Program-made: the position numbers and the translations under genes
Shown: positions 56 through 43,171 of the stretch, piece after piece
How the letters are laid out: every line of letters begins with the position of its first letter
Position numbering within the stretch: position 1 is the stretch's first letter
Origin: a virus
Strand: one strand, 5' to 3'
Length of the DNA stretch: 43,226 nt
IMG/VR virus record: IMGVR_UViG_3300045988_173145
Notes under the pieces: model-generated
Told to the model about the DNA's origin: nothing
What the model saw: the letters and a program-made list of their open reading frames with translations, nothing else
Databases searched by the model: none

Positions 56-172
56 TAACAGTGAACAGTGTGTGGTGTGAACAACAATACCGTCATGGTG
101 GTATGCAACATACATTGCACGTGACGGCATGTCACACACGCCACACAGCCAACAAACACACAGAAACAACAG

Positions 173-232
173 GGCGCGTGTCGTGTTACGTGCGTGCTCG
201 CAAGGCTGCGCGCGCACTACACGACACACGCC
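173..232. repeat. Structured hairpin element, copy 1 (33-nt conserved core 188-220)
   Basis: Outer arms ggcgcgtgtcgtgt (173-186) and acacgacacacgcc (219-232) pair at 13 of 14 positions. The core is identical to 868-900. A U-rich tail follows only on the minus strand. Confidence 0.8.
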
Positions 233-321
233 AACCCAAAACACGAAAAGAGGAAAGGCGAGGGGGAGAAAGGCGAGGGAGGGGCGAAGAGAAGAAAGAG
301 AGAAGAGAGTAGTGTTAGACG

Positions 322-753
322 GTGGAGGCGCTCGTCTCGCTGACGCTGCGACGCGCCACCACCCAACACAAACACAAAGAGAACAAAGAAGAAGAAAAGA
401 ACGACACGGTGAGCAGAACAAGCACCAGAGAACACCGACAATTCAGAAAACAAGTACTCGCCAGAGCACAAGCCATGGGCATCACACACTGCCCAGCATG
501 CGGAGTAAAACTCCAATACAACAACAACGGCGGACGCAAACCCAACAGTGCTGAAGCCGACCACATAATCCCAGCCTCGTTAGGAGGAACCAACCATCCG
601 GACAACGGACGAGTCCTCTGCGCCAAATGCAACAGCAGACGCGGCAACGGCAGAGGCGGCAAAGGCAGAGCACGCCACTACCAGAAAAACGAGGAGGAAC
701 GAGACAGACTCCCTATCGCCGTCATGCCCACCGAACACACCGACACATGGTGA
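322..753 (+). CDS. HNH endonuclease
   Basis: HRQFRKQVLARAQAMGITHCPACG ... ADHIIPASLGGTNHPDNGRVLCAKCNSRRG gives a CxxC plus H-N-(H/N) motif with a second CxxC-like pair. It sits upstream of the terminase, as in HNH-dependent packaging phages. Start is uncertain (GTG 322 or GTG 409). Confidence 0.8.
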   Translation: MEALVSLTLRRATTQHKHKENKEEEKNDTVSRTSTREHRQFRKQVLARAQAMGITHCPACGVKLQYNNNGGRKPNSAEADHIIPASLGGTNHPDNGRVLCAKCNSRRGNGRGGKGRARHYQKNEEERDRLPIAVMPTEHTDTW

Positions 754-853
754 CCACACACACCGCCATTCAAGTAGCAGAAAGGCGGGGCGCGAAGAAA
801 AACAGAGAAAGGAAAAGACAAAAGAAACAAACAAAGGAAAGAGAGAACACAGT

Positions 854-910
854 GGTGTTCGGGGATAACGTGCGTGCTCGCAAGGCTGCGCGCGCACTAC
901 CCCGAACACC
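854..910. repeat. Structured hairpin element, copy 2 (33-nt conserved core 868-900)
   Basis: Outer arms ggtgttcgggg (854-864) and ccccgaacacc (900-910) pair at 11 of 11 positions. The core is identical to 188-220 and is flanked on both sides by T-free purine-rich runs. Confidence 0.8.
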
Positions 911-1677
911 AAAAAAGAGAAGAAGAGAAGAAAGACGAAGAGACAAGACAAGAGACGAGACACCCCCCCCCACACCACCGCCATTCCACAATGACACAGC
1001 CATGTCACAAAAACACAGCACTAAACCAACAATACTGCGACAGCAAACACAATGAAAGGGGCAGGACAATGTAAGAGGAACAGGACACAGCCCCACACGC
1101 CACCGCACTTTCCCCACCCACACAAACACGACACCACACAAACGCAAAGGTGGGCGAGACAATACGAAGGAGAGCAGGACAATACGAAGGTGCCGAACCG
1201 ATCCGAAGACCGGACATCACCCCCCCCCGCCATTCAACAGGACCACAGGCAAACAACAAGGGGGACGCCGATACTGAACGAGGGGACACCAGCGCGCAGA
1301 CGGGAGGGACAGCATCACAGCACCCGCCCTTCACTCACCATGCCGCCCCGCCTCGTCATGCTACCCCACTATCCACGACGGCACCCCCTCCACCACGACG
1401 AGGGGGGGAGTAGACGAAGGACACCCCACCACACAAAGGAGTACGGACAGACACGCACCCACACACACCACCTAACCCGACAAGTAACAGTACACGACAC
1501 GACAGCGGTACTCACTCACACACCGAGGTGGAGTGCAGGCCAGGCCATACGCACTGGACTGGGTAGATCAACAGCAGCACACCCCACCGCCATTCCATAC
1601 ACCACACACCGAGGAGAGATGGACGCCATCCACTCATCTGCTCACGTTCACACAACCAACGAACAACAATGATCAAC

Positions 1678-1810
1678 GATCAACAATCATCGTTCAATGA
1701 TTGATCAACGAACAATGAACGATAAACATCATGATGATCAATCATGATCAATGATGATCAATGATGATCAATCATGATCAACGATGAACATGACGATGAA
1801 CATGTGATGC
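1678..1810. repeat. AT-rich array of TGATCA/GATCAA repeats with a 10-bp phased core (1741-1790)
   Basis: T(G/C)ATGATCAA is repeated five times back to back at 1741-1790, with degenerate copies on either side. There are eight GATC sites between 1680 and 1788. Confidence 0.9.
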
Positions 1811-2003
1811 ATGACATGCACACCAATACCATGCACCATGCATGGTGTCAACGCATGCCACAAAGGCAACACAACGCACAAACGCACAAACGCACAAAAA
1901 TACATAAAAACAAAAGAAATGTTACAAAAACACGCAAAAACATGCAAAGCATGAATAAACAATGGCGTTCAAAAAAACCATGGCAACATTTCGAGGCGAA
2001 CAC

Positions 2004-2039
2004 AAGGGATCCCTTAAACGGTAAGGGATCCCTTAAACG
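2004..2039. repeat. Tandem 17-bp repeat, each copy containing the 12-bp palindrome AAGGGATCCCTT
   Basis: aagggatcccttaaacg occurs at 2004-2020 and again at 2023-2039, a 19-bp period. Confidence 0.9.
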
Positions 2040-2174
2040 TGGGACCCACGTCACAAAACAAGACGGAGATCAGACAAAACGAGACGTACACCACACAATT
2101 TATGTGATGGGAGCCACACCCCCCTCCCCCATCCAGCCGCGAACACCCCGAAGGTCTGCCCATCCCTCCCTGCT

Positions 2175-2311
2175 TGTGGAAAACCCTGTGGATAACTCCA
2201 GTAACCTAGACCACAATGTGACTGCCGTCATGTGGAAAACTCCCAAACCTGTGGAAAACCCTGTGGAAAACTTTCTCCGCTTGTGGAAAACCCTGTGGAA
2301 AACTCCACAGG
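2175..2311 (-). promoter_or_regulatory. Array of seven DnaA-box-like iterons TGTGGA(A/T)AA (reverse complement TT(A/T)TCCACA)
   Basis: Boxes start at 2175, 2187 (TGTGGATAA, a perfect TTATCCACA on the minus strand), 2231, 2250, 2262, 2282 and 2294. Three pairs have 12-bp spacing. The terminal inverted repeat is ctgtgga (2293-2299) / tccacag (2304-2310). Confidence 0.6.
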
Positions 2312-2345
2312 AGCATGACGGGCATCACAGCATATAATAGACAAT

Positions 2346-2636
2346 ATGACAACCCACACAAACACCACAAACACCACAATCACCATATACGAACCCAACA
2401 GCCCCACACCCATCACAGACGCCACAAACACAAACAACCCAACACTCATCCGCCAAGCACTCGCACACAAAATCGCCACCGTCATAGACGACCCCAGAAC
2501 AGGCGACACAGCACTCACAAAACTCACCGCACAACTCATACAAATCACAGACCAACTCGCCACCACACAAAACGAAAACACCACCACACACACCACCGAC
2601 ATTCCAAACGAAACACAAACCTGGGACGGCATCTGA
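2346..2636 (+). CDS. Hypothetical small protein translationally coupled to the large terminase (possible small-terminase-like or packaging accessory protein)
   Basis: The stop overlaps the terL ATG (TGATG at 2634-2638). The C-terminal two thirds are non-repetitive (LIRQALAHKIATVIDDPRTGDTALTKLTAQLIQITDQL). The N-terminus is T/N-rich low complexity. No recognisable motif. Confidence 0.4.
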   Translation: MTTHTNTTNTTITIYEPNSPTPITDATNTNNPTLIRQALAHKIATVIDDPRTGDTALTKLTAQLIQITDQLATTQNENTTTHTTDIPNETQTWDGI

Positions 2637-4129
2637 TGAGCGAAAAACACCTCAGCGAAATCGCCGCCCACCTCACCCTCCCAGAAAACATCACACACAC
2701 AGCCTGGCCGCCAGTCAAACACCGCCTCCAAGAAATGCAATACCCCCTCGACGTATGGCAGCAAGACTGGCTCAAAGCAATCCTCGCCAAACGCGACGAC
2801 GGCCACTACGCCGCCAGCATCGACGGAATCCAAGCATCCATCCCAAGACAGGTCGGCAAAACATACACAATCGGCGGCCTCACATTCGCACTCGCCACCC
2901 TCCACCCAAACTACTTCGTCCTCTGGACCGCACACCGCACGCGCACCGCGGACGAAACATTCAACGACATGAAAGGAATGGCACAAATCCCCGAAATCGC
3001 CCCGTACGTACAGAAAATACGGCAAGCAAACGGGCAGCAAGCCATCCTCTTCAACAACGGGTCACGAATCCTGTTCGGCGCCCGCGAAGGAGGATTCGGA
3101 CGCGGATTCCACGGCGTAGACATGATTCTCTTCGACGAAGCCCAAATCCTGGGCGCAGCCGCACTAGACGACATGATCCCCGCCACAAACACCGCCCCGG
3201 ACCCTCTCATCATCAAAATCGGGACACCACCAAAGCCAAAAGATCCATCCGAAGCGTTCAGTGAATTCCGCAACCTCGCCCTTCAAGGCGAAATAAAAGA
3301 CGGCCTCTACCTCGAACTGGCCGCCGACTATGACGCTAATAGTGACGACCGGAAACAATGGGAAAAAGCCAACCCATCGTACCCCCGTCGCACACCCGAG
3401 TCCGCCATTCTAAGAATGCGCCGGCAGCTCGGAGAAGAATCATTCCGCCGCGAAGGCCTCGGAATATGGGACCGCGCCAACGACAGGCTCGCAATCGACC
3501 CCGTCGCCTGGAATACTGCCACAATACGGCCAGAAAACACTCCCAGTGGCATGCGATGGTGCGCCGCAATCCGATTCGCCCCAGACGGGTCAACATGCGC
3601 CCTAGCCAGAGCAGGACACAAGCAGAATACGCCCACACACGTCGAGCTATGCACACACCAAGGCGTCCGCCGCATGAACGAGGGCACGCAATGGATAATC
3701 GACTACATTGCGGACACCAAAGACAGATGGGCGCAAATCATCGTAGACGGAAAATACGGTGCCGGCGACACAATCGAAAGACTGAGAGCCATCGGAGTAC
3801 GCCCACAAGTCATCATCACCCCCACAATCACGCAAATCATAGACGCCTACAGCATGCTAGACGCCTCACTACGCGAAAACACAATCACACACCTGGACGA
3901 CATGCAATTGCGGGCCGAGGCCGCCTCGGCGACGCCGCGCCCGATCGGAACGTCCGGAGGATGGGCACTACAGGCCCCGCCCGGCGCTACCGTAGCCGGC
4001 CTAGAAGCATGCACGCTCGCAATGTGGGCCGCACGCACAACAAAACGAAGGCCCCGTTACAAGCCTTATGATAAAATCGAAAACGCCAATAGTAGAAATG
4101 ATCGTGGCGGCGGAGTATTGTTCCTATGA
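2636..4129 (+). CDS. terL: Terminase large subunit
   Basis: Walker A IPRQVGKTYT and Walker B VDMILFDEAQ, with a C-terminal nuclease-sized domain. ATG 2636 is chosen because residues 1-107 of the 2315 ORF are H/T/K/R low complexity from the AC-rich tract. Confidence 0.9.
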   Translation: MSEKHLSEIAAHLTLPENITHTAWPPVKHRLQEMQYPLDVWQQDWLKAILAKRDDGHYAASIDGIQASIPRQVGKTYTIGGLTFALATLHPNYFVLWTAHRTRTADETFNDMKGMAQIPEIAPYVQKIRQANGQQAILFNNGSRILFGAREGGFGRGFHGVDMILFDEAQILGAAALDDMIPATNTAPDPLIIKIGTPPKPKDPSEAFSEFRNLALQGEIKDGLYLELAADYDANSDDRKQWEKANPSYPRRTPESAILRMRRQLGEESFRREGLGIWDRANDRLAIDPVAWNTATIRPENTPSGMRWCAAIRFAPDGSTCALARAGHKQNTPTHVELCTHQGVRRMNEGTQWIIDYIADTKDRWAQIIVDGKYGAGDTIERLRAIGVRPQVIITPTITQIIDAYSMLDASLRENTITHLDDMQLRAEAASATPRPIGTSGGWALQAPPGATVAGLEACTLAMWAARTTKRRPRYKPYDKIENANSRNDRGGGVLFL

Positions 4130-21867: not shown

Positions 21868-21887
21868 ATGTTTCACGTGAAACATTC
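21866..21887. repeat. 22-bp perfect palindrome GAATGTTTCACGTGAAACATTC
   Basis: Self-complementary by inspection. It overlaps the stop codon of 20878..21867 and the 5' arm of the adjacent terminator. Confidence 0.95.
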
Positions 21888-21924
21888 CCCCTCACCACGA
21901 TTTCTGTGGTGAGGGGGAATGTTT
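21880..21924. terminator. Bidirectional hairpin terminator at the first convergent junction
   Basis: aacattccccctcaccac (21881-21898) pairs with gtggtgagggggaatgtt (21906-21923), an 18-19 bp stem with a 7-nt loop. It lies between a plus-strand and a minus-strand gene end. Confidence 0.8.
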
Positions 21925-22411: not shown

Positions 22412-22662
22412 GAGACGCTCCGCAAAAGTATGCTACAGCGCACCGCAGAATGCTTGGGGCCATCGGAGTCTTTGTGAGTCCATCCTGTTGACACGCCGCG
22501 CTTCGTCTTCACGAAAACACCATTATCGGTGATCTCGATCTTTCCCGGCAAGCACTCAACGGTAGTTACTTTGGTGTGGTCGGAAATGCGGGGAGAGGGG
22601 ATCATATCCTGCAATTCCGCAGCAATGGCCAACGCGATTTCCTGGCGATCAATCTTGCTCAT
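22408..22662 (-). CDS. Hypothetical protein
   Basis: 84 aa, tightly packed in the operon. Confidence 0.55.
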   Translation of the reverse strand: MSKIDRQEIALAIAAELQDMIPSPRISDHTKVTTVECLPGKIEITDNGVFVKTKRGVSTGWTHKDSDGPKHSAVRCSILLRSVS

Positions 22663-23180
22663 TATTCTACCTCCCGAGCGGACGGTGTGACACCGATCTG
22701 TCCCTGATAATGCGATCCCAGACCATTGGTGCCGTACGGCATACTGGCAGGCCTGTCCAGGTCTTCGAAAGCGATCTGCGCAATCCTATCCCCAGGGAAA
22801 AGGCGGGCGGCTTTAGTGGAGTGCAGGTTGGCGATCTCCAGGGTTACGTTTCCCTGAAATCCTGGATCAATGTATCCCGCGGACACGTGAACGAGAATTC
22901 CGCGGCGCGCCCACGATGACTTACCTTCCACCCTGGCCACTAGGTCGGCAGGCACGCTGACTTTCTCCTGCGTGGACGCGAGAATAAACTCCCCTGGCAG
23001 TAGCTCGTAACCATTCTCGTCAATGGTGACATTCTCGTCACCGTGACGATAGGTGATAATGTTTTCGTCCAGTCGCACTTCCACCGACGCCGGCTGAATA
23101 GACAACGTTTTGCGCCAGTCGGAAATGAGTTCGCCCCAATCGATTCTGCGTCGGAGAGTGAAATCACTCAGTGTAGCCAT
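22662..23180 (-). CDS. dcd: dCTP deaminase (Dcd/dUTPase superfamily)
   Basis: VPADLVARVEGKSSWARRGILVHVSAGYIDPGFQGNVTLEIANL matches the E. coli Dcd core [43 protein letters not shown]. Confidence 0.85.
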   Translation of the reverse strand: MATLSDFTLRRRIDWGELISDWRKTLSIQPASVEVRLDENIITYRHGDENVTIDENGYELLPGEFILASTQEKVSVPADLVARVEGKSSWARRGILVHVSAGYIDPGFQGNVTLEIANLHSTKAARLFPGDRIAQIAFEDLDRPASMPYGTNGLGSHYQGQIGVTPSAREVE

Positions 23181-23635
23181 TGTGGTAGTCCTTCGTCTTT
23201 GTTTTCCTCGATCACATGAACCGTGTAACCTTTATCGCATAGAATTGCTTTAGCTTCAAGAGCGAGAGCAGGCCTCTCTCCCGGGACGATTCCCACCGTG
23301 TCTCTACCGCGCTCCGACAGTACGATCGCGCAGACATACGCATCATCGTCCGACGAGTCGCTATACGTGAGCACATACCCGCCTATCTCATCCGAATATG
23401 TGCATCTAGTGAAAGTGATTCTTCCTTCTTGCCATGAACGCAAGGCAAGTGTTGTTCTCTGAATAAATTGAACGTTGTACATAAGCCCACGGATCGCGCC
23501 AGGCGGATCGAGAGAATAACTCCTGATAGTGAAGTTACAGTCGGTGGCATGCATAAACGCGGCCGCACCCCACAGTTCACCACATTTCGCCAAATCAACA
23601 AAAACAATATCAACAATATTCTCCACAACACTCAC
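23168..23635 (-). CDS. Hypothetical protein
   Basis: 155 aa with a GTGA-coupled start. Confidence 0.55.
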   Translation of the reverse strand: MSVVENIVDIVFVDLAKCGELWGAAAFMHATDCNFTIRSYSLDPPGAIRGLMYNVQFIQRTTLALRSWQEGRITFTRCTYSDEIGGYVLTYSDSSDDDAYVCAIVLSERGRDTVGIVPGERPALALEAKAILCDKGYTVHVIEENKDEGLPQWLH

Positions 23636-24627
23636 GCTTCCGGAATATAGTTATTGAGATGATCGTATGAAATGGCGGATATGAATTCTGTGAGCCGATC
23701 TCGAACTTCCCTAGCACGATCCTCTGGGGTGAGCTGCCTGTCAATGGTGTCCCAGTAGGCGTTTCGCAGAATTGCGATCACTGACTGGCTTCCATGCTTG
23801 GCGACGAGTTCGCGCAGATACCACGCCGCTTTCCCCATGTCAACATTCTCGTTGGCACCATTCTTGTGACCAGCCCTGAAAATATACTTCAGGGCACTCC
23901 CAGTCAGATAGTCTTTGTCGCGAATGAAAGTGATGGGCTCAGGATTGAGGGTCACATAGTGTGACGGGTGAGTCACCTCATTCTCATGCACATCATCCTC
24001 GATACATCCACCGTCCTTCTCTGTGATATAGAGAATGTCATCACACAAGGTCAACTCATGATGCCGCTCGTCGAAAGACGAGAATCTTTCTTCGCCATTT
24101 TCGGTCACATACCAAATGCACCATTCGCCAGTGAAATACCTACTCGCCCTCTTGATGGGCGCATAATAGCTGTCAGAAGTGCAAAGCGATACCGGATCGT
24201 TGACGAATTTCGTCTCATAGTCGGAATAAGCCTCATAAGGGCCGGTTTGCTGCCAATGCCAGCCGTCGTGCTTATGCTCCAAAGAGAAGCGACGACGACT
24301 CCAGCATGCTACTCGCCGTTTATTAGCAGAATTGCGGACGTGCACTTCCCAGAACCCGCAATGCGACACTACCTTAGAAACATACTCGTACATGCCGTCC
24401 GGGTAGAAAATCTTCTCGCACTCATCATCTACAGGCGACACAACATAATCTCCTTCCCCTGTCTGCGTGATCGAATACTCGTTGTACTTGAAATAGTGTC
24501 TCCGCTCTACACCGTCATGAATAGAATCGAAACTAATCCCCTTGTCGTCGCCGGTTTGCGCTATGATTCTCTCTTTACTACCGCCTGGCAAGTACAGCCA
24601 AACCTGTCTCAAAAACACCACGTCCAC
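23632..24627 (-). CDS. Hypothetical protein with a C-terminal DUF3310-like domain
   Basis: The C-terminus HPSHYVTLNPEPITFIRDKDYLTGSALKYIFRAGHKNGANENVDMGKAAWYLRELV resembles the DUF3310 pattern (HY...KY..R...K...KA.WYL). The GTG start lacks a clear RBS, so the start is uncertain. Confidence 0.55.
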   Translation of the reverse strand: MDVVFLRQVWLYLPGGSKERIIAQTGDDKGISFDSIHDGVERRHYFKYNEYSITQTGEGDYVVSPVDDECEKIFYPDGMYEYVSKVVSHCGFWEVHVRNSANKRRVACWSRRRFSLEHKHDGWHWQQTGPYEAYSDYETKFVNDPVSLCTSDSYYAPIKRASRYFTGEWCIWYVTENGEERFSSFDERHHELTLCDDILYITEKDGGCIEDDVHENEVTHPSHYVTLNPEPITFIRDKDYLTGSALKYIFRAGHKNGANENVDMGKAAWYLRELVAKHGSQSVIAILRNAYWDTIDRQLTPEDRAREVRDRLTEFISAISYDHLNNYIPEA

Positions 24628-28966: not shown

Positions 28967-29014
28967 AAACATTACTGCCCCCTACCGGATAGTCGGCAGG
29001 GGGCAGTAATGTTT
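28967..29014. terminator. Bidirectional hairpin terminator at the second convergent junction
   Basis: aaacattactgccccct (28967-28983) pairs with agggggcagtaatgttt (28998-29014), a 17-bp perfect stem. Confidence 0.8.
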
Positions 29015-29025
29015 CACGTGAAACA
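29010..29025. repeat. 16-bp perfect palindrome TGTTTCACGTGAAACA (copy 2)
   Basis: Self-complementary. It overlaps the 3' arm of the 28967-29014 hairpin. Confidence 0.95.
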
Positions 29026-29032
29026 CGGGGGC

Positions 29033-29050
29033 ATGTTTCACGTGAAACAT
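29033..29050. repeat. 18-bp perfect palindrome ATGTTTCACGTGAAACAT (copy 3)
   Basis: Self-complementary. It lies 8 nt after copy 2 and abuts the stop of the RuvC-like gene. Confidence 0.95.
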
Positions 29051-29536
29051 TCATCTCCGTTCCACGTCGTCTCCGATGATGCGGGCGATCACGTTCTCGT
29101 CGTGGCGTTTAGTGACTGCCCACAGGAAAAGATGGCGTCCCGCGTCACGTGCGTCGTCCGCATCGGGCTGACCCACGTCAGTTCCTGTAGGCCAAAAATT
29201 GAGAGACTTCAAAACATGGTCTGGCATGGTAGTTTTTGCCATTGCGGGAGTCTGCCATACGATGTCCCCGATCTCCCATTCCAGTACGGAGTTGATTTTT
29301 ACTGGGGTGAGGTCTGCGAGAAAATTGTTGCTAGGTCGAAGATCGAACTGCTCGCACACGACAATATCTGGGGCGAATTCGTTTCGTGTGGCCAGAATGT
29401 CATAGACGCTGGCCGTCCAATGCTCATACTTGAATTGTTGGACGTGGATGATTGAGAATTCGCGGTCGTCGTGGAAGTCTCCGATGACGATTCCTGTTGA
29501 TTTGCCGGGGTCGACGGCCATTACCCGCTGCATCAC
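29051..29536 (-). CDS. RuvC-like Holliday junction resolvase
   Basis: VMAVDPGKSTGIV (first catalytic Asp), VVCEQF (Glu) and PDADDARDAGRH (C-terminal Asp pair) give a RuvC-fold pattern. Confidence 0.7.
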   Translation of the reverse strand: MMQRVMAVDPGKSTGIVIGDFHDDREFSIIHVQQFKYEHWTASVYDILATRNEFAPDIVVCEQFDLRPSNNFLADLTPVKINSVLEWEIGDIVWQTPAMAKTTMPDHVLKSLNFWPTGTDVGQPDADDARDAGRHLFLWAVTKRHDENVIARIIGDDVERR

Positions 29537-30610: not shown

Positions 30611-30650
30611 TGAATAGCGGGGGCAACACTCACGTTGCCCCCGCTATTCA
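30611..30650 (-). terminator. 17-bp perfect GC-rich hairpin between two early genes (no U-tract)
   Basis: tgaatagcgggggcaac (30611-30627) pairs with gttgcccccgctattca (30634-30650), with a 6-nt loop. Confidence 0.5.
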
Positions 30651-42651: not shown

Positions 42652-42948
42652 AGTGCGTCTCGAACGGTTGAAGGGCGGTGTGTGGCTGGGGGCAGCACTA
42701 GTCACTACGATGCCGATCTCTCACAGTTCCTGTTAACCTCCTGTTTACTTCGTTCACCTCTCGTTTACTTTCTATGCATGTGGGTTGTTTGCTAGCAACC
42801 TGCTTTCTAGAGCAAAAACACCCGTTTGTGTTACTACAATGTTGGTGCGTGTCGTCACACTTTCTGCCCTTGTAGCAAGGGATTGTGTCAGTGTGTTTCG
42901 CGTGATTGCAACGTTTAGTCCCCGTTTACAGTTGTTTGTTGGCAGTGT

Positions 42949-42977
42949 TTGTTGCGGTGACTTTGGTCCCGTATGCT
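42949..42977 (+). promoter_or_regulatory. Candidate promoter TTGTTG-17-TATGCT
   Basis: -35 at 42949-42954, a 17-nt spacer and -10 at 42972-42977. Confidence 0.3.
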
Positions 42978-42983
42978 ACACTC

Positions 42984-43073
42984 GAGTAGACGAATCGTCG
43001 AAGACGATCGGCGGCGCAGCCGCTGAGGAGCCCTAGCGACGCAAGCGAGCGTCAGCGCCGCCGGGTGTTTTCG
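42984..43073 (+). ncRNA. Candidate small non-coding RNA of about 90 nt (promoter to terminator)
   Basis: Bounded by the candidate promoter above and the only U-tailed hairpin of the region. It contains an additional small hairpin (atcgtc gaa gacgat). Confidence 0.3.
43010..43073 (+). terminator. Intrinsic terminator with a U-tract
   Basis: ggcggcgcagccgct (43010-43024) pairs with agcgtcagcgccgcc (43048-43062) at 13 of 15 positions, followed by GGGTGTTTTCG. Confidence 0.55.
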
Positions 43074-43171
43074 AAGGGCTCGCCACTGTGTTGGGCCCAA
43101 CCTATACTCTTAAAAGAGTACTAGAATTAGATACTGTCTAGCTGTGTTAGGCAGTGTTTAATTAGGTGATG

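What the first reader, a model, noticed from the sequence alone, without database searches (positions are those of the whole stretch)
173..910. Two hairpins with an identical 33-nt core and compensatory outer stems bracket the HNH gene
Positions 188-220 and 868-900 are identical (acgtgcgtgctcgcaaggctgcgcgcgcactac), exactly 680 bp apart.

The flanks differ in sequence but are complementary within each copy. Copy 1 pairs ggcgcgtgtcgtgt (173-186) with acacgacacacgcc (219-232) at 13 of 14 positions. Copy 2 pairs ggtgttcgggg (854-864) with ccccgaacacc (900-910) at 11 of 11 positions. The core can also pair internally, gtgcgtgc (190-197) with gcgcgcac (210-217).

An invariant core inside a stem that changes sequence but keeps pairing is the classical signature of a selected secondary structure.

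Only on the minus strand is each hairpin followed by a U-rich stretch (reverse complement of 140-172 and of 776-853). They therefore look like intrinsic terminators or 3'-end structures of leftward transcripts running antisense through the T-poor tract and the HNH gene. Alternatively they are cruciform or protein-recognition sites delimiting an HNH cassette.
Basis: partly seen in the sequence, partly recalled or inferred. Interest (0 to 1): 0.75.

Follow-up and report, generated by a model that had tools for sequence, protein, structure and literature searches.

The report
Twin conserved hairpins flanking HNH gene
Two about 60-nt hairpins with an identical 33-nt top bracket the last gene (an HNH nuclease) of an abundant, uncultured human oral phage; comparison of more than 70 related genomes shows that selection keeps them folded, most likely as RNA signals marking transcript ends, but their strand and exact job remain unproven.

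Summary
Positions 188-220 and 868-900 are identical. Each core sits in a roughly 25-bp hairpin (173-232 and 853-911), and the two bracket the HNH gene (409-753).

About 120 related oral-metagenome phage genomes (TerL 94-98% identical) all carry both copies. In copy 1 the outer stem covaries: 7 pairs have double changes, and some genomes have matched 1-bp deletions. The apical stems are nearly invariant. The tetraloop varies freely but is usually the same in both copies of one genome (29 of 42 against 8.3 expected), which indicates concerted evolution.

Contig ends place cos at about 2156/2157. HNH is therefore the last gene before the right genome end.

Mismatch types (59 C.A against 2 G.U on the + strand) and RNAalifold energies (-40.5 minus against -31.8 plus) favour folding of the minus strand. 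Strong T-avoidance on the + strand confounds this. The only credible promoter and the gene itself are on the + strand.

My best reading is RNA-level, orientation-dependent transcript-boundary hairpins, at low-to-moderate confidence. The rivals are plus-strand mRNA processing or stability sites, DNA-level hairpins read by packaging or replication proteins, and recombination sites.

There is no Rfam match and no host copies. I class it as a new member of a known kind.

The parts
173..232 (.). Hairpin 1 (HP1). It has a 14-bp outer stem, a 3x1 internal loop, and then the invariant apical module 188-220 (8 bp with a U.G wobble, a UC bulge, 3 bp and a 4-nt loop).
   Evidence: Searches show the sequence and fold. 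Searches show covariation of the outer stem in 39-72 distinct relatives. The covariance model scores it at 94.8 bits.
853..911 (.). Hairpin 2 (HP2). It has the same apical module (868-900). Its outer stem TGGTGTTCGGGG/CCCCGAACACCA is almost invariant among relatives.
   Evidence: Searches show the sequence and fold. Searches show the invariance across relatives. The covariance model scores it at 61.3 bits.
409..753 (+). HNH endonuclease gene (114 aa). It is the last gene before the right genome end.
   Evidence: Pfam HNH and HNH_5 match and PHROG HNH families match. 114-aa homologues exist. The cultured relatives Rothia phage Spartoi and Arthrobacter phage MrSmee also end with an HNH gene.
312..370 (.). 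A third conserved hairpin (HP-X) between HP1 and the HNH start. It is not homologous to HP1 or HP2.
   Evidence: Conservation is 0.96-0.99. It folds. RNAalifold gives -31.4 on the minus strand and -25.8 on the plus strand. The covariance model scores it at only 7.8 bits.
43080..43161 (+). A conserved rightward promoter-like site (TCGCCA-17-TATACT) followed by 2-3 palindromic operator-like repeats TAGACAnTGTCTA. It lies about 230 nt upstream of HP1 across the circular junction of the assembly.
   Evidence: The scan hit is. Conservation is 0.93-0.99.
42985..43075 (+). A conserved structured RNA-like element ending in a hairpin plus a U-tract, i.e. a rightward intrinsic terminator. I used it as an internal control for strand inference.
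   Evidence: It folds. Its wobble intermediates are all U.G on the + strand (131 cells, 0 C.A), and RNAalifold gives -42.1 on the plus strand and -35.3 on the minus strand.
2134..2160 (.). The inferred cos cut, with the right end at about 2156 and the left end at 2157. The invariant flank CCGCGAACACCCCGAAGGTC repeats the HP2 arm motif CCCCGAACACC at 10 of 11 positions, plus an overlapping CCCCGAA.
   Evidence: At least 9 independent contigs begin at the base homologous to 2157, and one of them carries an Illumina adaptor fused to that base. The flank is invariant in 19 genomes.
140..4100 (+). A T-poor tract (T 2-16% on the + strand) whose left edge coincides with HP1. It spans HNH, the 1.4-kb non-coding right end, cos, TerS and TerL.

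Best explanation
HP1 and HP2 are selection-maintained RNA stem-loops that mark the two borders of the HNH transcription unit at the right end of a cos-type actinobacterial siphophage, probably of an oral Micrococcaceae host such as Rothia.

I think they act as orientation-dependent transcript-boundary elements.
- In leftward (minus-strand) RNA, each folds into a roughly 25-bp hairpin followed by U-rich sequence. It then ends, or processes and protects the 3' end of, leftward or antisense transcripts. This keeps such transcripts out of the HNH gene and out of the operator-controlled early region to the left.
- In rightward RNA, the same sequences are followed by A-rich, U-free sequence. They therefore do not terminate the HNH mRNA.

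The invariant apical module (8 bp, UC bulge, 3 bp) is probably read by one common factor, either a polymerase-associated factor or a double-strand RNase or RNA-binding protein. The loop is unconstrained and is kept alike in the two copies by gene conversion between the 33-40 nt repeats.

Shown: the structure, its conservation, covariation, concerted loop evolution, and its position relative to the gene and cos.

Inferred: that it acts in RNA, on which strand, and that it terminates or processes transcripts.
For: - The structure is under selection. Both copies are present in every related genome examined (114 a-type and 117 b-type copies), while the flanks diverge (conservation 0.3-0.6 next to 0.95 in the cores).
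- Covariation statistics support pairing. Both arms lose 1 bp together in some genomes. One inner-stem C-G has changed to U-A.
- Minus-strand signature. Among 72 distinct HP1 sequences there are 929 Watson-Crick cells, 59 C.A-type cells (G.U on the minus strand) and 2 G.U-type cells on the + strand. Neutral flanking columns predict only about 1.6-2.1 to 1.
- RNAalifold gives -40.5 on the minus strand and -31.75 on the plus strand for HP1, and -31.4 against -25.8 for HP-X. The adjacent bona fide + strand terminator shows the reverse.
- U-rich 3' tails occur only on the minus strand.
- The phage uses long perfect hairpins at other operon borders, some with U-tracts.
- The T-poor tract starts at HP1.
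- Precedent: cluster A mycobacteriophages make abundant, stable leftward non-coding RNA from the extreme right genome end, with undefined 3' ends (PMC5712189).
- Concerted evolution of the loops: 29 of 42 genomes have identical loops, against 8.3 expected, and 0 of 20000 permutations reach this.
Against: - No conserved sigma-70-type leftward promoter was found to the right of HP2.
- The minus-strand tails lack a U-run, and the whole minus strand is U-rich here.
- The invariant U195.G212 is a wobble on the + strand but an A.C mismatch on the - strand.
- Single-sequence MFEs are equal on the two strands (-40.45 against -39.91).
- Counted as independent events, the mismatch asymmetry is only about 12-15 to 2-3. 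It could be produced by T-avoidance on the + strand.
- HNH and the only conserved promoter point rightward, so the hairpins are certainly present in + RNA if that promoter is active.
- A plain terminator does not need an invariant 26-nt stem sequence.
Confidence: 0.33

Rival explanations
1. Plus-strand mRNA elements. The hairpins lie in the 5' and 3' untranslated regions of the rightward HNH mRNA. They act as double-strand RNase (RNase III-type) processing sites and/or barriers to exonucleases, cutting out and stabilising a discrete HNH message from a long U-poor transcript. This would resemble the RNase III sites that bracket phage T7 genes.
For: - HNH is on the + strand.
- A conserved promoter with operators lies about 230 nt upstream of HP1.
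- Both hairpins have about 25 coaxial bp with an asymmetric internal loop. This stem length and layout match my recollection of RNase III substrates.
- The loop sequence is irrelevant while the stem sequence is constrained.
- The invariant U.G gives 8 contiguous pairs on the + strand.
- The absence of a U-tract lets + RNA read through.
Against: - C.A mismatches that break the + strand outer stem persist at high frequency (25 of 72 at one pair), while + strand wobbles are nearly absent.
- The consensus fold is 9 kcal/mol worse on the + strand.
- There is no direct evidence of cleavage.
- TerS has its own TATAAT 7 nt before its ATG. A long polycistronic RNA that would need processing is therefore not required.
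Confidence: 0.25
2. DNA-level hairpins. One strand (probably the minus strand), exposed as single-stranded DNA or extruded as a cruciform, is recognised by a phage protein: the HNH/terminase complex during termination of packaging, or a primase or initiator during replication. The invariant module and the HP2 arms are the protein's sequence-specific contacts.
For: - The stems of the apical module are invariant far beyond what folding alone needs.
- The HP2 arms are sequence-invariant. The same motif abuts the cos cut (CCGCGAACACC plus CCCCGAA at 2137-2155).
- The elements lie 1.25-2 kb from the right end, next to the packaging nuclease gene.
- The folds are also stable with DNA parameters.
- The composition of the 4-kb zone (minus strand rich in G+T, poor in A+C) resembles the signature of a strand that spends time single-stranded.
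- G.T tolerance on the minus strand fits a minus-strand ssDNA fold.
Against: - The motif match near cos is short and was found post hoc (3 hits against 1.2 expected genome-wide).
- A cruciform would not give a strand-asymmetric mismatch spectrum.
- Cultured relatives with the same HNH-last layout have no such hairpins.
- I know of no precedent for hairpin signals 1-2 kb from cos.
Confidence: 0.2
3. Recombination sites of a mobile or excisable HNH cassette. The two identical cores are crossover sites (site-specific or short-homology) through which the HNH module is lost, duplicated or acquired.
For: - The cores are direct repeats flanking a single nuclease gene.
- Loop evolution is concerted.
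- One contig has a clean a-core-b' junction lacking HNH (L146). Another has a b-core-a' junction, as expected of a duplication or a circle.
Against: - Only 2 of about 230 junctions are of these types. One comes from a 2.7x-coverage contig and the other from the first 55 bases of another contig, so both may be assembly artefacts.
- The arms of each copy are self-complementary rather than hybrid, unlike attL and attR.
- No recombinase or transposase was detected among the ORFs scanned.
- The core was not found elsewhere in 185,579 species genomes, apart from two chance hits inside coding sequences.
- HNH-last is the ancestral layout in relatives.
- Recombination does not explain covariation of the outer stems.
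Confidence: 0.07
4. A recent local duplication or a mutationally maintained quasi-palindrome with no function.
For: Two copies only. Palindromes can be homogenised by template switching.
Against: - Both copies are present in all relatives from many samples, while the surrounding non-coding DNA is highly diverged.
- The stems stay invariant although the loop and flanks mutate freely.
- Compensatory changes and compensatory indels are present.
Confidence: 0.02

Closest known systems
Intrinsic (factor-independent) terminators, including U-tract-poor 'I-shaped' hairpins described in Actinobacteria
   Same: GC-rich stable hairpin at the border of a transcription unit. U-enriched sequence follows on one strand. 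The same phage has similar long hairpins at other operon ends.
   Different: The stem is much longer (about 25 bp) and composite. There is no U-run. The apical stem sequence is invariant and duplicated. The strand is not established.
RNase III processing hairpins of phage T7 (for example R1.1) and the lambda sib site
   Same: Several hairpins with a shared core within one phage, lying between or around genes. About two helical turns of duplex are interrupted by an asymmetric internal loop. The loop sequence is irrelevant.
   Different: No cleavage data exist. There are only two copies, both around one small gene. High-frequency C.A mismatches on the sense strand argue against a sense-strand duplex requirement.
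Lambda nutL/nutR boxB and HK022 putL/putR antitermination RNA sites
   Same: Two copies per genome of a small hairpin with an identical or near-identical core and different flanks, acting in cis on transcription.
   Different: nut and put sites lie just downstream of early promoters on divergent transcripts, and the loop (boxB) is the recognition element. Here the loop is the only free part, both copies are on the same strand 0.65 kb apart, and no N-like or Q-like gene was identified.
REP/BIME elements and IS200/IS605 subterminal hairpins
   Same: An imperfect palindrome of about 30 nt with a bulge. Read on the minus strand, the core starts with GTAG, like a REP. The copies are same-strand hairpins at both ends of a short segment.
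   Different: There are only two copies, and no copies in host-type genomes. No Y1 transposase or RAYT was seen. The position is fixed in all genomes. The extra covarying outer stems are not a REP feature.
[quoted passage not shown]
   Same: An actinobacteriophage with a non-coding right-end region next to cos. Stable structured RNA of unknown function is expected there.
   Different: In those phages a mapped promoter (Pleft) and RNA-seq support exist. Here no leftward promoter is identified, there is no sequence similarity, and an HNH gene lies inside the region.
Integron attC sites
   Same: Imperfect palindromes whose pairing, rather than sequence, is conserved. They are recognised as a single folded strand and flank gene cassettes.
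   Different: In attC the outer R boxes are conserved and the centre varies, which is the opposite of what is seen here. No integron integrase is present, and there is no array.

Membership tests
Intrinsic terminator | A stable GC-rich hairpin directly followed by a U-tract on the transcribed strand | tested here: inconclusive
   The hairpin criterion is met on both strands. The + strand tails have U 0.01-0.07, so the criterion is not met there. The - strand tails have U 0.52-0.55 but no run of 4 or more U. The simple terminator scan did not call either hairpin.
Intrinsic terminator | Located at the 3' end of a transcription unit on the strand where it acts | tested here: inconclusive
   On the + strand, HP2 follows the HNH stop by 100 nt, but HP1 precedes the gene. 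On the - strand no gene or promoter was found upstream.
RNase III processing site (T7 R1.1 type) | At least 20 bp of near-continuous duplex with an internal loop | tested here: met
   HP1 has 14+8+3 bp and HP2 has 12+2+8+3 bp, each with an asymmetric internal loop and a bulge.
RNase III processing site (T7 R1.1 type) | Cleavage by RNase III that yields the mature mRNA ends | not testable with these tools
   This needs end-mapping in infected wild-type and rnc-deficient hosts.
Rfam families (any described RNA) | A match to a curated covariance model | tested here: not met
   There were no hits at gathering score over the whole window. Over 1-2700 at E up to 5 there were only chance snoRNA and miRNA hits, and these lay elsewhere.
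REP / RAYT or IS200-IS605 hairpins | Many dispersed copies in the genome or host, and an associated Y1 (HUH) transposase | tested here: not met
   There are two copies only. The scan of 185,579 species genomes returned 2 chance hits inside coding sequences, without arms. No transposase domain was found among the ORFs scanned.
att-type site-specific recombination junctions (attL/attR) | An identical core flanked by hybrid arms, with an integrase nearby | tested here: not met
   The arms of each copy are complementary to each other (a/a' and b/b'), not hybrid. No integrase was found among the ORFs scanned.
Lambda nut / HK022 put antitermination sites | Position just downstream of early promoters, with loop-specific recognition by an N-like protein or by RNAP | tested here: inconclusive
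   HP1 lies about 230 nt downstream of a promoter-like site. However, the loop is the only unconstrained part, no N-like gene was identified, and HP2 lies after the gene.
Conserved structured element (generic criterion) | Pairing maintained by compensatory substitutions across homologues | tested here: met
   96.1% of cells are paired. 7 pairs have changes on both sides, covering 29 cells, and 0 of 500 shuffles reach these values. Slid controls give 0-2 such pairs. RNAalifold recovers the same helix independently.

The most novel reading that the evidence does not exclude
The hairpins are single-strand DNA (or R-loop-associated) signals on the minus strand, within a 4-kb strand-asymmetric zone centred on cos. 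In this reading the minus strand is exposed during replication or packaging. It folds at HP1 and HP2, and a phage protein reads it: the HNH/terminase complex, whose cos-flank motif is repeated in the HP2 arms, or the primase-helicase. The signals would then act as packaging-termination or priming signals. This would be a previously undescribed class of cis element for cos phages, and it would also explain the extreme T-poor composition.
Probability: 0.1. Interest if true: 0.8.

Novelty: new member of a known kind. Interest (0 to 1): 0.45.

Why it matters
The phage is very common in human oral metagenomes, with well over a hundred near-complete genomes in public data, yet it has never been cultured. 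These hairpins are the best-conserved non-coding elements around its packaging nuclease gene.

They offer a clean natural example of three things:
- A modular hairpin, with a sequence-constrained top and a structure-only base.
- Concerted evolution of a two-copy cis element.
- How strand of action might be read from wobble asymmetry, and how compositional bias can confound that reading.

If they are orientation-dependent transcription barriers, they help explain how a cos phage isolates its last gene and its early control region once the genome circularises. If instead they are read as DNA by the HNH/terminase machinery, they would add a new component to HNH-dependent cos packaging.

Tried and rejected
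- Known RNA families: Rfam returned nothing at gathering score or at permissive thresholds. There are no tRNA or tmRNA genes.
- Similarity to cultured phages: megablast found nothing. blastn found only a short HNH-coding match to Arthrobacter phage MrSmee.
- Host REP-like or CRISPR-repeat-like origin: the core was not found in species-representative genomes, apart from two chance hits inside Streptomyces and Acidobacteria coding sequences.
- More distant relatives: the only distant TerL relative in IMG/VR (41% identity, L116) has no comparable repeats. The right ends of Rothia phage Spartoi and Arthrobacter phage MrSmee have an HNH gene but no twin hairpins. The HNH protein search returned only relatives at 89-99% identity.
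- Extra diverged copies: a covariance-model search of the whole window with filters off found none. HP-X is not a homologue.
- A small ORF through HP2. The codon at 852-854 is ATG in 59, GTG in 5, TTG in 1 and AAG in 1 of 66 sequences, and the core would encode VRARKAARAL. I rejected it as a conserved protein because the downstream frame is not kept: the conserved CCGCCATTCCA is read in all three frames, and ORF lengths run from 31 to more than 130 codons.
- A leftward promoter to the right of HP2. The candidates TTGGCA-17-TATTGG near 1823-1851 and TAAATT near 2100 lack key -10 bases or conservation.
- Gene-context look-ups for two HNH proteins returned nothing. A third gave gene calls that confirm a leftward right arm.
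- Literature searches found no description of this phage group or of such hairpins.
Full report
**Observation.** The sequence is as described.
- The 33-mer at 188-220 recurs exactly at 868-900. No other match exists in the window even with 3 mismatches, and 0 are expected by chance.
- Each copy is embedded in its own inverted repeat. 173-186/219-232 pair at 13 of 14 positions (C177.A228 is the exception). 853-864/900-911 pair at 12 of 12.
- The shared core folds on itself: 8 bp including U195.G212, a UC bulge, 3 bp and a 4-nt loop.
- The composite hairpins have about 25 bp. They fold at -37 to -41 kcal/mol as RNA on either strand, 3-6 SD better than shuffles. They also fold well with DNA parameters.
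- A covariance model built from relatives finds only these two copies in 43 kb, at 94.8 and 61.3 bits. The next hit scores 20.8 bits and is a generic hairpin.

**Genomic setting.**
- The window is a circular assembly, with a 55-bp terminal overlap.
- It is a siphophage. Its TerL is about 49% identical to that of Arthrobacter and Rothia phages and about 46% to that of Propionibacterium freudenreichii phages. One related contig is labelled human oral metagenome.
- Structural genes run rightward from TerS (2346-2636, PHROG small terminase) and TerL (2639-4129). The replication genes of the right arm (AAA_24, SNF2 helicase, DUF3987) are on the minus strand.
- At least nine independent contigs from different samples start at the base homologous to 2157. 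One has a sequencing adaptor fused to it. The physical ends (cos) are therefore at about 2156/2157.
- The true order at the right end is: early control region, HP1, HP-X, HNH (409-753), HP2, 1.25 kb of non-coding DNA, right end.
- HNH as the last gene is shared with Rothia phage Spartoi and Arthrobacter phage MrSmee. These have no comparable hairpins.

**Comparative evidence.**
- Exact and gapped pattern scans of IMG/VR and of metagenome contigs, plus TerL-anchored loci, gave well over 100 loci from one tight phage cluster (TerL 94-98% identical).
- Every genome that spans the region has both hairpins (114 a-type and 117 b-type copies). The surrounding non-coding DNA is highly diverged and full of indels: conservation is 0.3-0.6 there, against 0.95 over the cores.
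- In HP1 the outer stem changes sequence but keeps pairing. On 39 distinct sequences, 96.1% of cells are paired. Seven pairs have changes on both sides, covering 29 cells. No shuffle out of 500 reaches these values, and slid controls collapse. RNAalifold recovers the helix independently.
- Some genomes have lost one base pair from both arms.
- The stems of the apical module are almost invariant. Searching without requiring the exact core turned up only three changes. One is a compensatory C193-G214 to U-A. One is a T191 to C in HP2 of two contigs. One is a deletion of the unpaired T218.
- The outer stem of HP2 is sequence-invariant apart from singletons.
- The first two loop bases vary freely, with nine variants. 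They are nonetheless identical in the two copies of a genome in 29 of 42 cases, against 8.3 expected, and 0 of 20000 permutations reach this. That is concerted evolution. The simplest cause is gene conversion between the short repeats.
- One low-coverage contig shows a clean deletion of HNH between the cores. Another starts with the reciprocal junction. Both are compatible with recombination at the cores, and equally with assembly artefacts.

**Which strand folds?**
- Evidence for the minus strand:
  - In 72 distinct HP1 sequences the non-Watson-Crick cells of the outer stem are C.A or A.C on the + strand (G.U on the - strand) in 59 cells, and G.U on the + strand in 2. Transition frequencies in the neighbouring unpaired columns predict only about 1.6-2.1 to 1.
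  - The alignment-level fold is -40.5 kcal/mol on the minus strand against -31.75 on the plus strand. HP-X at 312-370 behaves the same way (-31.4 against -25.8).
  - As a control, the conserved structure at 42985-43075 is a hairpin with a U-tract on the + strand. It shows only + strand wobbles (131 cells, no C.A) and folds better on the + strand.
  - Only the minus strand has U-enriched 3' tails (0.52-0.55 against 0.01-0.07), although without U-runs.
- Evidence against the minus strand:
  - The invariant U195.G212 is a wobble only on the + strand.
  - Single-sequence energies are equal on the two strands.
  - Counted as independent events, the asymmetry is only about 12-15 against 2-3.
  - The region is under strong T-avoidance on the + strand (T 2-16% from 140 to about 4100). 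This favours T-to-C changes and so C.A intermediates.
- Context points rightward. HNH is on the + strand. The only well-conserved promoter-like site is TCGCCA-17-TATACT at 43080-43108, followed by palindromic operator-like repeats, and it also points rightward. I found no convincing leftward promoter to the right of HP2.

**Interpretation.**
- The elements are real, selected, two-copy structured elements. They have a modular design: a sequence-constrained top, a structure-only base in HP1, and a free loop.
- The phage uses long perfect hairpins at other operon borders, some with clear U-tracts. A transcript-boundary role is therefore the most economical reading.
- I lean to an orientation-dependent barrier. 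It would be effective on leftward RNA, where hairpins are followed by U-rich sequence. It would be harmless to the rightward HNH message, which has no U after the stems. This uses the wobble asymmetry, the tails, and the coincidence of HP1 with the left edge of the T-poor tract.
- It has a precedent in the abundant leftward non-coding RNAs at the right ends of cluster A mycobacteriophages (PMC5712189).
- It does not explain why the apical stems are invariant. That suggests a sequence-specific reader.
- The main rival is that the hairpins work in the + strand mRNA as RNase III-type processing or stabilising sites, as around T7 genes.
- A DNA-level role remains open, for two reasons. The invariant HP2 arm CCCCGAACACC recurs at 10 of 11 positions, with an overlapping CCCCGAA, directly at the invariant cos flank (2137-2155). 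The base composition of the zone also resembles that of a strand often single-stranded.
- A mobile-cassette reading is weak. The arms are not hybrid, no recombinase was found, and no copies exist elsewhere.

**Comparison with known systems and novelty.**
- There is no Rfam family match, and no similar DNA in cultured phages.
- The literature I could search does not describe this phage group.
- The element fails the defining tests for REP/IS200-type hairpins and att junctions. It meets the structural test for an RNase III-type substrate. It is inconclusive as an intrinsic terminator.
- I class it as a new member of a known kind, namely phage transcript-boundary hairpins. Two features are unusual: the duplicated invariant module and the concerted loop evolution.

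**Verdict.** The mechanism is assigned with low-to-moderate confidence and needs strand-specific RNA end-mapping to settle.

Noticed in passing
window 2134-2160: Physical genome ends (cos) inferred from contig starts. At least 9 contigs from different samples begin at the base homologous to 2157 (TGCCCATCCCTCCC...), and one carries an Illumina adaptor fused to it. The flank GACCTTCGGGGTGTTCGCGGCC (minus strand) is invariant in 19 genomes.
   Followed up: partly
window 140-4100: An extreme strand asymmetry. T is 2-16% on the + strand (AT skew up to 0.56), with C above G from about 1 kb. It is roughly centred on cos and covers HNH, 1.4 kb of non-coding DNA, TerS and TerL. Its left edge is sharp at HP1, and the polarity is reversed (T-rich) at 42700-43170. 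The cause is unknown. The right end of Arthrobacter phage MrSmee shows a milder A>T skew (0.21-0.37), while Rothia phage Spartoi does not.
   Followed up: partly
window 1656-1790: About ten TGATCA/GATC-containing repeats with 10-bp phasing (ATGATGATCAATCATGATCA...). From memory they resemble Dam-site clusters of origins or the phage P1 pac site. An A-rich stretch follows at 1895-1975.
   Followed up: no
window 2167-2307: Six or so direct repeats of CCTGTGGAAAAC/CTTGTGGAAAAC immediately to the right of the cos cut and upstream of TerS. They are likely small-terminase binding sites (cosB-like).
   Followed up: no
window 2004-2035: Two tandem copies of AAGGGATCCCTTAAAC, each itself palindromic, about 130 bp to the left of cos. 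They look like a protein-binding site.
   Followed up: no
window 763, 978, 1227, 1587 (+ strand, exact) and 13 further sites: The motif CCGCCATTCMA occurs 17 times with up to 1 mismatch, against 2.3 expected (0 of 100 shuffles reach this). Four exact copies lie in the same orientation in the right-end non-coding region. In many relatives a copy overlaps the 3' foot of HP1. Variants form the arms of the hairpin at 30612-30650.
   Followed up: partly
window 42936-43075: A highly conserved block (0.90-0.98) with promoter-like hexamers, followed by a roughly 90-nt structured element that ends in a GC hairpin and GGGUGUUUUCG. It shows compensatory and U.G-mediated changes on the + strand. It is a candidate small RNA or leader with an intrinsic terminator, and it has no Rfam match.
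   Followed up: partly
window 43080-43161: A conserved promoter-like TCGCCA-17-TATACT followed by 2-3 copies of the palindrome TAGACAnTGTCTA (operator-like). Some relatives carry an extra copy.
   Followed up: partly
window 312-370: A third, unrelated conserved hairpin (conservation 0.96-0.99) about 40 nt upstream of the HNH start. It folds better on the minus strand at the alignment level.
   Followed up: partly
window 2331-2348: TATAAT ends 9 nt before the A of the TerS ATG (2346), which looks like a leaderless-mRNA promoter arrangement. The structural operon may therefore not depend on transcription across cos.
   Followed up: no
L146 (ERZ773028 NODE_11742) and L032/L060 (IMGVR_UViG_3300045988_160651): One 3-kb contig (2.7x coverage) joins the HP1 5' arm, the core and the HP2 3' arm, deleting HNH cleanly. 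Another contig begins with the reciprocal junction (HP2 5' arm, core, HP1 3' arm). These are either natural recombinants at the cores or assembly artefacts.
   Followed up: partly
window 852-854 and downstream: The codon at the foot of HP2 is ATG in 59 of 66 relatives, GTG in 5 and TTG in 1, and it is preceded by a purine-rich tract. The core would encode VRARKAARAL. The downstream frame is not conserved, so any product would be a short variable basic peptide.
   Followed up: yes
window 21869-21888 and 29007-29052: The palindrome AATGTTTCACGTGAAACATT occurs at the end of the late operon and twice at a gene-orientation switch at 29 kb. It is a candidate regulator-binding site.
   Followed up: no
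window 22662-23180 (-) and 23632-24627 (-): A dCTP deaminase-like protein (Pfam DCD, 2.5e-31) lies next to a DUF3310 protein. This is a possible nucleotide-pool or DNA-modification function. I did not test whether it relates to the base-composition anomaly.
   Followed up: no
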